A stretch of 64,000 nt of DNA, taken from the human T2T-CHM13v2.0 reference genome, Homo sapiens. The translations under genes were made by a program, and so were the position numbers. Where the stretch lies: assembly GCF_009914755.1 (NCBI RefSeq), contig NC_060926.1; one strand, written 5' to 3'. Below are positions 25,850 to 55,972 of this stretch, in pieces. The notes under the pieces are model-generated. The model did not search any database. It saw nothing but the letters and a program-made list of their open reading frames with translations, and was not told the DNA's origin. How positions within the stretch are numbered: position 1 is the first letter of the stretch; each line of letters starts with the position of its first letter.

Positions 25850-25932
25850 AATTCATTCAATGACTGTTAGTGAGTACCTAGTATATGCTAGGTAATATTC
25901 TAGATTCTGAGTGTAGAGATGTTAATAAAACA
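25850..25932 (-). mobile_element. L2 3' terminus, host of the L1MA insertion
   Basis: attcattcaa...tgagtacctagtatatgctagg...gttaataaaaca. Confidence 0.65.
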
Positions 25933-27997
25933 CCAAAAAACTATTAGAACTAATAAATTCCTGTAAAGTTAAAGGATACGGAATCAACATACAAAAGTCA
26001 GTTGCATTTCTATACACTAACAATGAGCTATTCAAAAAAACTGATAATCTCATTTACGATAGCATCAAAAAACAAACAAAACAGAAATAAATCCAAGAAG
26101 GTGAAATATCTGTACACTGAGAACTATGAAAAACTGAGGAAAGAAATTAAAGACACAAATAAATAGACAGATTCTCACATTCACAGATTGGAAGAATTAA
26201 TAAATGATCTACAGATTCAATTCAGTCCCTATCAAAATTTCAATGACTGTTTTTCAGAAAAAAATAATTCTAGAGTTCATATGAAACCACAAAATCACTG
26301 AATAGCTAAAGCAACCTCGAGCAAAAAGAACAAAGCTGGAGGTATCACACTTCCTGATTTCAAAAAATATTACAAACCTATACTAATCAAAATAGCATGG
26401 TACTGCCATAAAAGCAGACACATAGACCAATGAAACAAAATAGAGAGTTCAGAAATAAATCCACACATATATGGTTAACTAATTATCAACAAAGATGCCA
26501 AAAATACACAACAGGACAATAATAGACTCTTCAATAAATGGTGTTGGGAAAACTGGATATCCACATGCAAAAATAAAAATAAAAATTAGGCCGGGCACAG
26601 TGGCTCATGGTTGTAATCCCAGCACTTTGGGAGGCCAAGGCAGGTGGATCACAAGGTCAGGAGTTCAAGACCAGCCTGGCCAATACAGTGAAACCCTGTC
26701 TCTACTAAAAATACAAAAATCAGCTAGGTGTGGTGGTGGGCACCTGTAATCCCAGCTACTAGGGAGGCTGAGGCAGGAGAATCACTTGAACCCAGGAGGC
26801 AGAGGTTGCAGTGAGCCAAGATCATGCCACTGCACTCCAGCCTGGGCAACAGAGCAAGACTCCATCTCAAAAAAAAAAATTAAATTGGACTCTTAAGTCA
26901 GATATAAAAGTAAACTAAAAATGTATTAAAGACTTAATCTTAAGACCGGAACTGTAAAACTGCCAGAAGAAGAATATACAAGATAAACTCTTTGACATTG
27001 GTCTTGGCTATGATTTTTGGGGTTTCATAACAAAAGCAGAGACAAGAAAAGTAAAAATAAACAAGTGGGGCTTCATCAAACTAAAACATTTTTGCACAGA
27101 AAAGAGAAATAACAATAAAAAAGGCAGCCTATGTAATGAGAGTAAATATTTTAATTATATATCTGATAAGGGTTAATACCCAAAATACATAAAGAACTCA
27201 ACTCAATAGCAAAATGAGTAACCCAATTAAAAAATGAGTAAAGGACCAACATAAACAGTTTTCCAAAATAGACATACAAGTGGCCAATGCGTAAATAAAA
27301 AGATGCTCAATGAGACTAATCACCAGGGAAATCCAAACCAAAACCACAGTAAAATATCACTTCACATGTTAGGATGGTTATCATCAGAAAGTGGAAAGAT
27401 AATAAGTGTTGCCAAGGATGTGGAGAAATTGGAACCCTTGAACACTGTTGGTGGGAATGCAAATTGGTACATCCTTTGTGGAAAACAGTATGGAAGTTCT
27501 CCCAAAATTAAAAATAGAACCACCATATGATTGAGGAATCTCACTTCTGGGTATGTACCTAAAGGAAATAAAATCACTGTTTCCAAATAATATTTGCACT
27601 TCCGTGTTCATTGCAGTGTTATTTACAGTAGCCAAGATACGAAAACAACCTAAATGTTCACTGACAGAAGAATGGATGAAGAAAATGTGATATATAGACA
27701 CAATGGAATATTATTAAGCCTTAAAGAAGAAAGAAATCCTGCCATTTGGAAAAATATGGATGAACCTTGAAGATTTAATGCTAGATAAGTAACCCTGACA
27801 CAGAGAGACAAATATTGCATGATCTCACTTATATGTGGAATCTAAAAAAAAAGTTGAACTCATAGCAACAGGGAGTAGAATGGTTGTTACCAAGGGTTGG
27901 GAGATAGCAGAATAGGATAGATACTGGCCAAAGGGTACAAAATAAGTACTGGAGACCTAATGTACCCCAAAATAACTATAGTTAATAATCATGTATA
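25933..27997 (+). mobile_element. L1MA (MA8/MA9-like) ORF2 3' part and 3'UTR, cut off by Tigger1
   Basis: ORF2-like text (aaaaactattagaactaataaat, aaagctggaggtatcacacttcctgatttcaa) then 3'UTR ending ggagacctaatgtac...actatagttaataatcatgtaTA. Confidence 0.85.
26589..26879 (+). mobile_element. AluS-type SINE inside L1MA
   Basis: ggccgggcacagtggctca...gactccatctcaaaaaaa. aaaaatta occurs on both sides. Confidence 0.95.
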
Positions 27998-30128
27998 TAG
28001 GCATACCTTATTTTATTGCAATTCATTTTATTGTGCATCACAGAATATTGTAATTTTTGTAAATTGAAGTAATGTCAATCAAGTCTATTGGCACCATTTT
28101 TCCAATAGCATGTGCTCACTTTGTGTCTCCATGCCACATTTTGGTAATTCTCACAATACTTTGCATTGTTTTATTATTTTATTTTATCTGCTATGATGAT
28201 CTGTTATCAGTGATCTTTGATGTTATTATTGTAGTCATTCTGGGGCACCACAAGCTGCATCCATATGAGACAACGAACTTAGTTGATAATGTTGCATGTG
28301 CTCTGACTGCCTCACCCACTAGCTGTTCCCTCATCTCTTTCCCTCTCCTCAAGCCTCTCAATTTTCTGAGACAAAACAATATTGAAATTAGGCCAACTAA
28401 TAACCCTACAAAGGCCTCTAAGTGTTCAAGTGAAAGGAAGACGTCTCTCACACTTTAAATCAAAAGCTCGAAATGATAAAGCTTGGTGAGAAGGCCTGTC
28501 AAAAGTGGAGATAGGCCAAAAGTGAGGCCTCTTGCACTAAACAATTAGGCAAGTTGTGAATGCAAAGGAGTTCCTGAAAGGAATTAAAAATGCTACCCCA
28601 GTGAACACAGGAATAATATGAGAGCAAAACAGGATTGTTGCTGGTATGGAGAAAGTTTGCATGGTCTGGATAGAAGATCAAACCAGCTATAATATTCCCT
28701 TAAGCCAAAGCCTAATCCAAAGCAACCCTACCCTCCTCAATTCTGTGAAGGCTGAGAGAAATAAGGAAGTTGTAGAAGAAAAGATTGAAGTGAGCAAAAG
28801 TTATTCATAAAGGTTAAAGGAGGAAGGTGTCTATATAACATAAAAGTGCAGCAAGTGCTTATGTAGAAGCTATAGCAAATTATCCAAAAAATCTAGCTAA
28901 GTTCATCGATGAAGGTGGCTACACTGAACAACATATTTTCAATGTAGACAGAACAGCCTTATATTAGAAGAAGATGCCATCTAGGGTTTTAATAGCTAGA
29001 GTAAGTCAATGCCTAGCTTAAAAGCTTCAAACAAGATGACAGGCTGATCCACTTGTTGGGGCTAATACAGCTGGTGACTTTAAGTTGAAGCCAGTGCTCA
29101 TTTACCATTCCAAAAATCATAGGGCCTTTAAAAGTTATGCTAAATCTACTCTGCCTATGCTCTGAAAATAGAAGAGAAAATGGTTGACAGCACATCTGTT
29201 AACAGCATGGTTTACTGATTAAGTCAACTGTTGAGATCTACTACCTAGAAAATAATTCCTTTCAAAAATATTACTGCTTATTGGCAATGCACCTAGTCAC
29301 TCAAGAGCTCTGATGGAGATGTACAGGAGATTAATGCTGTTTTAATGCCTGCTTACACAACGTCATTTCTGCAGCTCATATATAAGAGAGTAATTTTGAC
29401 TTTGAAGTTTTATTATTTAATAAATACATTTCATAAGACCATAGCTTCCATAAGATAATGATTCCTCTGATAAATATAGGCAAAATAAATTGAAAACTTT
29501 CTGGAAAGGGTTCACCATCTAGATGCCATTAAGAATATTCATAATTCATGGGAGGAGGTAAAAATATCAATATTAACAGGAGTTTGGAAGAAGATGGTTC
29601 CGGCCCTCATGGATGACTTTGAGCAGTTAAAGACTTCAGTAGAAGAAATAACTGCAGATGTACTAGAAATAGAAAGAGAGCTAGAATTAGAAGCAAAGCC
29701 TGAGGATGCGACTGAATTGCTTCAACCTCATAATAAAACTTGAATGGATGAAGAGTTGCTTCTTATGGATGAGCAAAGAAAATCTTTTCTTGAGATGGAC
29801 TCTACTCCTGGTGAAGATGCTGTGAACTTGTTGCAATGACAATAAAGAATATGGAATATTACATAAACTTAGCTGATAAAGCCATGATAGAGTTTGAAAG
29901 GATTGATTTTGAAACAAATTCTACTGTGGGTAAAATGGTATCAAACAGCAGAAACAGAAATCTTTCATGAGAGGAAATGTCAGTAGACTCAGCAAACTTT
30001 TTTTGTTGTCATATTTTAAGGAATTGTCACAGTGATTTCATCCTTCAGCAACAACCATTCTGGTCAATTGGTAGACATCAACATCAAGGGAGGACCCTAC
30101 ATAAGCTGCCAAAAGATAGTGGTTCCTC
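27998..30128 (+). mobile_element. Tigger1 DNA transposon, 5' ~2.1 kb with dead transposase; right end missing here
   Basis: TA followed by (c>t)aggcataccttattttattgc left TIR. Transposase text includes ttttcaatgtagacagaacagcctt (FNVD-like). Ends near catcaagggaggaccctac...aaaagat. Confidence 0.92.
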
Positions 30129-30884
30129 TATATTATTTCTTAAATGATTAATAAAATTTGCCATTTGGGTTGAAGATTATTTTATTGGAAATTTGTTAAT
30201 TATAAATCAGTTTCTTTTAAAGATAAAAGTCTATAGGTTTTCTATTTCTTTTTTATTTAGTTTTGGAAGTTTATACCTGTCAAAAGGATTTGTATATTTC
30301 ATGTAAGTAGCCAAACTTATTGCCATGAAATTGTTCATAACATTGCCTTATTATTATTTAATGGCTGCTGTGATACCCACAATTTTATTCCTATTATTGG
30401 TAATTTGTTTTTCTCTCTTATGATGAATCTAGCCAGATATTTATCAAGTTACTGATCATTTCAATAAACCAGATTTTACATTCATTGATTTTCTCTACTT
30501 TTTTGGTCTTCAACATCATTTTACATTTGATTGATTTCTATTTGTATAGTTATCTGCTTCCTTCTGCTTACTTTGCATTTCGCTTGAGTTTTTAAAAATT
30601 TCTTTAAAGTTTAAATAACTGCTTTGAGACTTTTTTCTTTTCTAAAATGACGATTTAATTTAATGCTATAAAATTATCTGAAAGCAACACAGATAATTTG
30701 TGTGATTCAAATTTTGGTATGTGGTATTTTCATTTTCATTACAATTTGCCTTGTGAGCTATTTTTCAACTGTGGGTTTTTTCAAAATATTTTCTTTAATT
30801 TCCAAATATTTAGAAAATTTCCAGGTATCTTTATTTTATTTAATTTATTTCTGATTTGTTCAAATTCATACTTTGTATAAATTC

Positions 30885-55522: not shown

Positions 55523-55722
55523 TTTTTTTTCCAGCTTTATTGAGGTATGATTGATGAATAAAAATTGTATGTATTTAGGAAATACGATTAGATGTTTTGA
55601 TAGTTGTATGCATGGTAAAATAATTACCACCATTAAACTAATTAACATATTATTCCCTTACATATTTACCTTTCTTCTTGTTGTGAGAACGCTTGAGATC
55701 TACTCATAGTAAATTTCAACTA
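55523..55722 (-). mobile_element. L1MA terminal 3'UTR and A-tail, the missing end of 25933-27997
   Basis: Reverse strand reads TAgttgaaatttactatgagtagatctcaagcgttctcac...atacctcaataaagctggaaaaaaaa. Confidence 0.85.
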
Positions 55723-55878
55723 CAGCATACCATGGAGATCCTGAAGGCTGGGTTTCAGACCACTGCAATAAAGCAAATATCACAGTAAAGCAAGTCATAC
55801 ACATTTTTTTGTTTGCTAGTACCTATAAAAGTTATGCTTATACTTTTGGTTTCCTAGTACATATAAAAGTTATGCTTA
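55723..55878 (-). mobile_element. Tigger1 right terminus with TIR
   Basis: TA followed by cagcataccatggagat...ttcagaccactgcaataaagcaaatatcacagtaaagcaagtca...tataaaagttatg. Confidence 0.88.
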
Positions 55879-55972
55879 ATATTTAATAAACACTAATTTT
55901 ACACTAGCCCGTTTCAGAAAATAGAAAAGAACATTTTTCAACTCATTTTATAAGGTCATTATTACCCTGATT

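What the first reader, a model, noticed from the sequence alone, without database searches (positions are those of the whole stretch)
25850..55960. ~25.7-kb inversion recorded by four split transposon fossils (breakpoints ~30,130 and ~55,880)
(1) Tigger1 starts at 27998 (+) and stops at ~30128. Its right terminus with TIR and TA lies at 55723-55878 on the minus strand. (2) Its host L1MA stops at ...gttaataatcatgtaTA (27997). The next consensus text, TAgttgaaatttactatgagtagatc...aataaagctggaaaa, is at 55722-55523 (-), directly beyond that TIR. (3) The L2 hosting the L1MA reads ...gttaataaaaca at 25932 and continues as aaaacagacaaaattcc beyond the L1MA tail (55526 downward, minus strand). (4) Reciprocally, the old L1M at 30129+ (-) ends ...cccaaatggcaaattttattaatcatttaagaaataa and resumes at ~55884 (+) as ataaacactaattttacac..ttcagaaaatagaa, the next ORF2 text. 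Flipping 30130-55880 restores all four. The breaks are internal to unrelated elements, so the inferred mechanism is end-joining or template switching. The event postdates the Tigger1 insertion. Roughly 0.1-0.15 kb of Tigger1 appears lost, judged from the recalled consensus. I cannot tell whether the inversion is already catalogued.
Basis: partly seen in the sequence, partly recalled or inferred. Interest (0 to 1): 0.8.

Follow-up and report, generated by a model that had tools for sequence, protein, structure and literature searches.

The report
Old 25.75-kb inversion splitting transposon fossils
A 25.75-kb stretch of a human chromosome 2 gene desert was flipped long ago by two breaks that cut through old transposon remains; the flip is real and mapped to the base, but it is an ordinary kind of evolutionary rearrangement.

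Summary
Window 30130-55882 is inverted relative to its flanks.

I compared each pair of split pieces with other copies of the same repeat elsewhere in this genome.
- Tigger1: the two pieces lie on one strand, in order, about 100-120 bp apart in 7 of 7 other copies.
- L1 host of the Tigger1: its two flanks lie in order on one strand in 13 of 14 other copies. They abut in 6 of these and share the Tigger1 TA target.
- Old L1M: its two pieces abut in 5 of 5 copies examined, with a 5-6 nt overlap in 3 of them.
- L2: this join could not be tested.

The breakpoints carry no inverted homology, so non-allelic homologous recombination (NAHR) is excluded. A 38-bp tandem duplication ends exactly at the right junction. 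This points to non-homologous repair with templated synthesis.

The divergence of the duplicate copies suggests an age of tens of millions of years. A human-gibbon inversion table lists nothing at this locus.

One correction: the L1M text to the right of the junction lasts only about 88 bp. It then meets an unrelated antisense L1 fragment.

The window has no annotated gene. Interest is low.

The parts
25850..25932 (+).
   Evidence: The string is present. L2 identity rests on recall only. Searching this genome with it finds only itself, and blastn and nhmmer give nothing significant. It ends in AAAACA, which recurs after the L1 poly(A) at 55521-55526 and looks like a target-site duplication.
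25933..27997 (+).
   Evidence: 65% identical to the long L1 in the window. 72-81% identical to 39 other genomic copies. Continuity with 55523-55722 is shown.
27998..30129 (+). Tigger1 left part (terminal inverted repeat through most of the transposase region)
   Evidence: 72-86% identical to 7 other copies. DDE_1 hits in profile order. The end of the alignment is at 30117-30129.
30129..30130 (.). Junction J1 (uncertain by about 2 nt)
   Evidence: Tigger1 alignments stop at or before 30129. Old L1M alignments stop at 30131-30136.
30130..55882 (.). Inverted interval, about 25,753 bp
   Evidence: Both ends carry the complementary halves of the elements split at J1 and J2.
30130..30885 (-). Old L1M ORF2 piece 'A'; its 3' end sits at J1
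   Evidence: 66-81% identical to 40 other matches elsewhere in the genome. 58% identical to the long L1 in the window. Extent.
55345..55522 (-).
   Evidence: The string is present. Searching this genome with it finds only itself. Bounded on the low side by an Alu (output). L2 identity not tested.
55523..55722 (-). L1 (L1MA) 3' end with its poly(A) (T run 55523-55530) and the TA target (55721-55722)
55723..55843 (-). Tigger1 right end with terminal inverted repeat
   Evidence: 79-88% identical to 39 other genomic copies, which match query bases 2-125 of 156 and never the last 31. Same strand and order as the left part in 7 of 7 copies.
55844..55878 (-). Second copy of a 38-bp tandem duplication of Tigger1 sequence, ending at J2
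   Evidence: Tandem Repeats Finder (TRF) array 55806-55878: period 38, 1.9 copies, 91% matches. It is one of only 3 arrays scoring 80 or more in the 64-kb window. Other Tigger1 copies carry a single copy (alignment).
55879..55882 (.). Junction J2: 4 nt (ATAT) that cannot be assigned to either side
55883..55971 (+). Old L1M piece 'D', which continues piece 'A'
   Evidence: Adjacent to A in L011, L012, L016, L017 and L020. Matches 0 of 14 copies of the younger L1 family.
55966..56546 (-). Fragment 'E' of a younger L1 (ORF2 region lying upstream of D in L1 coordinates). It is truncated at both ends and has no poly(A). It is context, not part of the inversion.
   Evidence: 78-82% identical to the 39 other matches scored. 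Ends defined. It aligns to positions 2861-3449 of the long L1 in this window, which I used as a coordinate reference.
56553..58168 (+). Old L1M resumes about 710-990 bp further along its own sequence
   Evidence: L013, L022, L021; 57661-58168.

Best explanation
This is an old germline inversion, very probably fixed, of about 25.75 kb made by two double-strand breaks.

The two breaks. One break fell inside a Tigger1 DNA transposon. That Tigger1 sat at a TA in the 3' end of a 5'-truncated L1, which (by recall) sits in an L2. The other break fell inside ORF2 of an older L1M. The segment between the breaks was rejoined in reverse by non-homologous repair.

Traces at the Tigger1 break. About 100-120 bp was lost. 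A 38-bp copy of the adjacent sequence was synthesised at the junction. This is the pattern expected of alternative, polymerase-theta-type end joining or a short template switch.

Trace at the L1M break. Five nucleotides (TAATA) ended up at both junctions, as a staggered break with fill-in would give.

What is shown and what is inferred. Shown: the inversion, the base-level junctions, the loss, the duplication and the lack of homology. Inferred: the repair pathway, that the duplication arose in the same event, and the age. I place the age at roughly one third to two thirds of the time since Tigger1 was active, which is tens of millions of years.

No functional consequence is indicated. The hub's annotation gives no gene within 100 kb.
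For: Reciprocal continuity against independent genomic copies:
- Tigger1: 7 of 7 copies.
- L1 host: same strand and order in 13 of 14 copies, abutting in 6, and sharing the TA target.
- Old L1M: adjacent in 5 of 5 copies aligned.

The region is single-copy. Each of six searches of this genome returned one 100% match, at the query's own place.

No inverted homology lies at the breakpoints. The best inverted hit is 86 bp at 65% identity, E = 0.001, and lies 1.6-1.8 kb from each breakpoint.

The duplication ends at J2. Only 3 tandem arrays scoring 80 or more exist in 64 kb. By my arithmetic, the chance of one such array end falling within 5 nt of either breakpoint is about 0.002.

Age. The duplicate copies are 91% alike by TRF, or 32 of 38 positions in ungapped register. 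Tigger1 is 72-86% identical between copies over its body, 73-76% for most segments.

The gibbon-versus-human inversion table lists 16 chr2 events, some as small as about 15 kb. None lies between hg38 158.74 and 180.77 Mb (PMC9712629, Supplementary Table S5, read as rows).
Against: - The L2 join is untested.
- No outgroup genome and no second human haplotype could be examined. The age and the fixed state are therefore inferred.
- The date rests on only 3-6 differences in 35-38 nt.
- The duplication could predate the inversion by coincidence.
- The 5-nt overlap lies in AT-rich sequence and could be alignment ambiguity.
- Absence from the gibbon table is weak evidence. That file was cut when stored and the method's sensitivity is unknown to me.
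- A second unusual junction (D/E) lies only about 88 bp from J2. A simple two-break event does not explain it.
Confidence: 0.82

Rival explanations
1. One complex replicative event (several template switches of the MMBIR or chromoanasynthesis type) made everything at once: the inversion, the Tigger1 loss, the 38-bp duplication, and the replacement of about 710-990 bp of the old L1M by the 581-bp antisense L1 fragment E.
For: Three non-canonical junctions lie within about 700 bp:
- J2, with a templated duplication;
- the D/E junction about 88 bp away, where the D and E alignments overlap by about 6 nt (CCTGAT);
- the E/old-L1M junction at 56546-56553.

E has no poly(A) and is truncated at both ends.
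Against: E is explained more simply. An ordinary minus-strand L1 inserted into the old L1M, so its 5' end abuts the host at 56546-56553 as a normal 5' junction. A later deletion of about 3 kb then removed its 3' part together with the adjacent host sequence.

No donor copy stands out. The best genomic matches to E are 82, 81, 81 and 80% identical, although only 40 of 5062 candidates were scored.

Junctions between repeats are frequent in this region, so proximity alone is weak evidence.
Confidence: 0.1
2. The inversion is real but young or polymorphic in humans, or is private to this assembly or a mis-assembly of it.
For: No second human haplotype was examined. The catalogues that could settle it were unreadable here: Yoo 2025 supplement, Maggiolini 2020 supplement and Mao 2024.
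Against: The two copies of the junction-associated duplication have already diverged by 9-16%. The gibbon-versus-human table reports no orientation difference at this locus. There is no repeat structure that could mislead an assembler: the flanks are single-copy and there is no inverted homology.
Confidence: 0.05
3. Non-allelic homologous recombination between inverted repeats caused the inversion.
For: According to passages of Yoo et al. 2025 (PMC12058530), 724 of 1,140 ape inversions over 10 kb have annotated human segmental duplications at one or both ends, so this route is common.
Against: The breakpoints are fixed to within a few bases inside a Tigger1 and an L1M, which are unrelated. No significant inverted match lies at either breakpoint. 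Sequence was lost and gained at the junctions.
Confidence: 0.01
4. There was no inversion. The pieces are independent insertions that only look complementary.
For: None found.
Against: This would need three coincidences. A second Tigger1 fragment would have to start about 110 bp after the first ends. It would have to sit at the same TA of the same L1 position. A second old-L1M fragment would have to start within 5 nt of where the first ends. All of these would also have to be in reciprocal orientation.
Confidence: 0.01

Closest known systems
Small evolutionary inversions in primate genomes without duplications at the breakpoints (maps by Strand-seq and assembly: Mercuri et al. 2022, PMC9712629, table rows read; Maggiolini et al. 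2020, PMC7605249, passages read; Yoo et al. 2025, PMC12058530, passages read)
   Same: It is a balanced inversion of tens of kilobases in single-copy, gene-poor DNA. The gibbon table lists chr2 events of about 15 kb marked 'no' for segmental duplications at both breakpoints.
   Different: This one is not in the gibbon list, and I could not find it in any list. It was detected from split repeats inside one genome, not from a comparison of species. It is probably older than the human-gibbon split.
NAHR inversions flanked by inverted segmental duplications
   Same: The outcome is the same: a flipped segment.
   Different: This event has no inverted homology at the breakpoints. It also shows loss, duplication and filler at the junctions, which homologous exchange does not leave.
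L1 5' inversion by twin priming (recalled: Ostertag and Kazazian 2001)
   Same: L1 pieces lie in opposite orientation next to one another (D/E here; also 61142-62777).
   Different: Twin priming puts the 5' ends of two consecutive pieces of one element together. At D/E the 3' ends meet. The pieces also belong to L1 families of different age: E is 78-82% identical to its relatives, and D matches none of 14 of them. Twin priming never inverts 25 kb of flanking DNA.
Staggered-break inversions with short inverted duplications at both ends (recalled from Drosophila and Anopheles work, e.g. Ranz et al. 2007)
   Same: The same host sequence is present at both junctions, here TAATA.
   Different: Here the shared sequence is only 5 nt and lies in AT-rich text. 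The classical cases are hundreds of bp to kilobases.
Templated insertions at junctions made by polymerase-theta-mediated end joining (recalled)
   Same: A direct copy of the sequence next to the break is inserted exactly at the junction.
   Different: At 38 nt it is at the long end of what I recall for such insertions. The enzyme cannot be inferred from sequence alone.

Membership tests
Tigger1 (pogo-like DNA transposon) | Terminal inverted repeats flanked by a duplicated TA target | tested here: met
   TA at 27996-27997 and at 55721-55722. The element ends read TAGGCATACC (27998) and CAGCATACC (55723). An uninterrupted L1 copy (L037) has a single TA at that site.
Tigger1 (pogo-like DNA transposon) | DDE_1-type transposase remains | tested here: met
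   PF03184 hits: E = 5.7e-07 (profile positions 7-43) and E = 1.2e-04 (profile positions 95-141), in order on the plus strand. Four other ORF fragments gave no hit.
Tigger1 (pogo-like DNA transposon) | Assignment to subfamily Tigger1 by consensus | not testable with these tools
No repeat library was available. About 40 genomic relatives are 79-88% identical at the end of the element.
LINE-1 insertion (host of Tigger1) | 3' end with poly(A), 5' truncation, target-site duplication | tested here: met
   T run at 55523-55530 on the plus strand. AAAACA occurs before 25933 and again after the poly(A). The duplication partly overlaps the A run, so its length is uncertain.
L2 (outermost host) | Similarity to the L2 3' end, with the two flanks joining in L2 coordinates | tested here: inconclusive
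   Searches of this genome returned only the query itself. blastn and nhmmer against 250 kb of held sequence gave nothing at E < 0.1.
Simple balanced two-break inversion | Both junctions are reciprocal: each split element has one half outside the interval and one half inside at the far end, in opposite orientation | tested here: met
Simple balanced two-break inversion | An uninverted arrangement exists in an outgroup or an ancestor | not testable with these tools
   No non-human vertebrate genome was available. One scan of prokaryote assemblies for the J1 24-mer found nothing.
NAHR-mediated inversion | Inverted homologous repeats at the two breakpoints | tested here: not met
L1 twin-priming inversion (for the D/E junction) | The 5' ends of two consecutive pieces of one element meet | tested here: not met
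   The 3' ends meet, and the pieces come from different families.

The most novel reading that the evidence does not exclude
The inversion, the Tigger1 loss, the 38-bp templated duplication and the antisense L1 patch 88 bp away are all the scar of one multi-switch replicative repair event in the germline of an anthropoid ancestor. That would make this a fossil, base-resolved example of a small chromoanasynthesis-like rearrangement that became fixed.
Probability: 0.1. Interest if true: 0.45.

Novelty: new member of a known kind. Interest (0 to 1): 0.22.

Why it matters
By itself it matters little. The inversion is neutral-looking, sits in a gene desert, and resembles hundreds of others found between primate genomes.

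Its value is methodological. Nested, split transposon remains gave base-level breakpoints and the repair scars of an old inversion from a single genome, with no outgroup. The copy divergence of a junction-made duplication also offers an internal clock.

If outgroup alignments date it as predicted, it could serve as a clean rare-genomic-change marker. The prediction is that it is shared by apes and probably Old World monkeys, and absent in lemurs and non-primates.

Tried and rejected
- PDB mapping of L1 ORF2 coordinates. 
- L2 join. Two searches of this genome, blastn and nhmmer found no usable L2 relatives.
- Earlier findings of the scan.
- Outgroup or contaminant sequence. The J1 24-mer has 0 matches in the prokaryote genome collection.
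- Catalogues.
  - The Yoo 2025 supplement is a picture PDF.
  - The Mao preprint's PMC copy (PMC10028934) has no readable supplementary files, and the Cell 2024 version is not held.
  - The Maggiolini 2020 supplement is not readable.
  - A search for 'inversion, KCNH7, FIGN' gave 3 unrelated papers. These gene names for the flanks are from my recall.
  - Searches on micro-inversions and on repeat defragmentation gave no report of this locus.
  - REANNOTATE (PMC2672092, passages read) says detection of inversions from repeat fragments was still to be implemented.
- Hypothesis that A and E are inverted duplicates of each other (a fold-back). Rejected. They are only 57% identical. E is 69% identical to the long L1 in the window used as reference, and A is 58% identical to it.
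- Hypothesis that the short piece D belongs to the younger L1 (E). Rejected. D matches 0 of 14 copies of that family but matches copies of the old family next to A.
- Hypothesis that the second tandem copy is really the next stretch of Tigger1. Rejected. Its alignments to Tigger1 copies are gapped and poor, and 39 genomic copies stop matching before it.

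
Full report
**What was checked.** The window is human T2T-CHM13 chr2:163,432,001-163,496,000, with no annotated gene (hub note). I read the three junction regions. 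No repeat library was available, but the whole genome that holds the window can be searched. I therefore used other genomic copies of each repeat as stand-ins for a consensus. If two pieces in the window are halves of one element, they must align to an uninterrupted copy elsewhere on the same strand, in order, and next to each other.

**Tigger1.**
- The left piece (27998-30129, plus strand) begins with the terminal repeat directly after a TA. Two ORF fragments in it hit Pfam DDE_1 in profile order (the other four fragments tried gave nothing).
- The right piece (55723-55843, minus strand) ends with the terminal repeat followed by a TA.
- In 7 of 7 other Tigger1 copies fetched (L002-L008), the two pieces align on the same strand and in the same order. 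They are separated by 113-143 nt of copy sequence between the aligned ends. Local alignments put the end of the left piece at 30117-30129 and the start of the right piece at about 55842.

**L1 host of the Tigger1.**
- I compared 27700-27997 (+) and the reverse complement of 55523-55722 with 14 other copies (L025-L038).
- Both pieces align in order on one strand in 13 of them. L036 has no match to the right piece, and L026 has an interruption of about 590 bp.
- In 6 copies (L025, L027, L029, L030, L031, L037) the left alignment reaches the last 5 nt and the right one starts within the first 5 nt, with 8 nt or less between them.
- In L037 the two alignments overlap by exactly the TA. That is what excising a TA-duplicating transposon predicts.
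- The L1 has a T run (its poly(A)) at 55523-55530. AAAACA occurs both before its 5' end (25927-25932) and after the tail.

**Old L1M.**
- The piece right of J1 ('A', 30130 to at least 30885) is antisense ORF2 sequence of an old L1. It is 66-81% identical to other matches elsewhere in the genome and 58% identical to the long L1 at 36800-42600 in this window, which I used as a coordinate reference.
- The piece right of J2 ('D', 55883-55971, plus strand) is short. It was detectable in 5 of 14 A-type copies at E <= 1e-3.
- In the five copies aligned in detail (L011, L012, L016, L017, L020), D starts where A ends. In three of them (L011, L012, L016) the two alignments overlap by 5-6 nt, and the window sequence shared by the two pieces is TAATA. 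In L017 they are adjacent without overlap. In L020 the D alignment runs spuriously upstream.
- In L023, D lies 376 nt beyond A.

**L2.** The two outermost flanks could not be tested. Searching this genome with either returns only itself. blastn and nhmmer against all sequence held gave nothing significant. From recall the two strings read like consecutive text of the L2 3' end, but that is not a test.

**Conclusion on the observation.** Three nested joins are exact to within a few bases, and the two junctions are reciprocal. J1 joins the Tigger1 left part to reversed L1M-left. J2 joins reversed Tigger1-right to L1M-right. A single two-break inversion of 30130-55882 (about 25,753 bp) explains all of it. 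Any alternative needs more events. The region is single-copy, since each search of this genome gave one 100% match at the query's own place.

**Mechanism.**
- A blastn comparison of 4 kb around J1 with 4 kb around J2 found no inverted homology at the breakpoints. The best inverted hit is 86 nt at 65% identity, E = 0.001, and lies 1.6-1.8 kb away. Homologous recombination between inverted repeats is therefore excluded.
- Tandem Repeats Finder (TRF) finds a 38-nt unit in 1.9 copies at 55806-55878 with 91% matches.
- Other Tigger1 copies carry this sequence once.
- The array ends at J2. Only three arrays scoring 80 or more exist in the whole window.
- By my arithmetic, the chance that an end of one of them lies within 5 nt of one of the two breakpoints is about 0.002. 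I therefore infer that the duplication was made during the repair that formed J2.
- Four nucleotides (ATAT, 55879-55882) cannot be assigned to either side.
- Together with the 100-120 bp loss and the 5-nt L1M overlap at both junctions, this is the signature of non-homologous repair with some templated synthesis. From recall, that means alternative (polymerase-theta-type) end joining or a short template switch. The pathway is inferred, not shown.

**Age.**
- The event postdates the Tigger1 insertion.
- If the duplication is coeval with the inversion, its two copies date the event. They are 91% alike by TRF, or 32 of 38 positions identical in ungapped register.
- Different Tigger1 copies are 72-86% identical over the element body, 73-76% for most segments.
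- Both figures measure twice the elapsed time. The event therefore falls at very roughly one third to two thirds of the time since Tigger1 was active, which is tens of millions of years. The error is very wide because only 3-6 differences are involved.
- Independently, Supplementary Table S5 of Mercuri et al. 2022 (PMC9712629; rows read) lists 16 human-gibbon inversions on chr2, some only about 15 kb long. None lies between hg38 158.74 and 180.77 Mb, an interval that must contain this locus.
- That fits an inversion older than the human-gibbon split, but absence from a list is weak evidence.
- The catalogues that would settle the matter could not be read: the Yoo 2025 tables, the Maggiolini 2020 tables and Mao 2024.
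- From passages of Yoo et al. 2025: 1,140 interspecific ape inversions over 10 kb were curated, and 724 of them have annotated human segmental duplications at one or both ends. This event belongs to the class without such duplications.

**A correction and a side finding.**
It does, but only to about 55971.
- From about 55966 to 56546 lies an antisense fragment ('E') of a younger L1 family. It is 78-82% identical to the 39 other matches scored, and all of their alignments end at query positions 419-435 of 446.
- E covers ORF2 sequence that lies upstream of D in L1 coordinates (positions 2861-3449 of the reference L1 at 36800-42600, against about 3565-3650 for D). E has no poly(A).
- D matches none of 14 copies of that younger family.
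- The old L1M resumes at about 56553, some 710-990 bp further along its own sequence (L013, L022, L021).
- The D/E junction has the 3' ends of the two pieces facing each other, and the two alignments overlap there by about 6 nt (CCTGAT). That is not the geometry of twin priming.
- The simplest account is an ordinary minus-strand L1 insertion into the old L1M, followed by a deletion of about 3 kb that removed its 3' part and the adjacent host sequence.
- Because this junction lies only about 88 bp from J2, a single complex event cannot be excluded. I give it about 10%.

**Verdict.** The feature is an ordinary, old, non-homologous inversion in gene-free DNA. I rate interest at about 0.2. It is a new member of a known kind, insofar as I could find no record of it in the sources I could read.

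Noticed in passing
window 55966-56546 (with 55883-55971 and 56553 onward): A 581-bp antisense fragment of a younger L1, truncated at both ends and without poly(A), replaces about 710-990 bp of the old L1M. Its junction with the L1M piece shows an alignment overlap of about 6 nt (CCTGAT) and lies only about 88 bp from inversion junction J2.
   Followed up: yes
window 49070-50487: Two L1 3' ends lie in inverted orientation, with their truncated 5' ends meeting at 49778/49779 at the same L1 coordinate. The arms are 78-85% complementary. This is a palindrome-like pair. It could be an inverted duplication made at insertion, or two insertions.
   Followed up: partly
window 61142-62777: An antisense L1 3' part (61142-62175) is followed directly by a sense L1 5' part (62183-62777). 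These correspond to positions 4965-5801 and 449-1047 of the long L1 at 36800-42600, which I used as a coordinate reference. The layout resembles an L1 with a 5' inversion, or two adjacent elements.
   Followed up: no
window 11055-13662 and 36800-42600: A 2.6-kb L1 3' half is 85-88% identical to the near full-length minus-strand L1 at about 36870-42417. This is a younger L1 family than the ones split by the inversion.
   Followed up: no
window 52105-52195 and 56705-56781: These are the only other tandem arrays scoring 80 or more in the window: a 41-nt unit in 2.2 copies, and a (TATATGATA)n simple repeat inside the old L1M.
   Followed up: no
window 31728-31813 versus 57561-57642: A weak inverted match (86 nt, 65% identity, E = 0.001) lies 1.6-1.8 kb from the two breakpoints. 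It is probably two copies of an old interspersed repeat, because 31734-32096 also matches several other places in the window.
   Followed up: no
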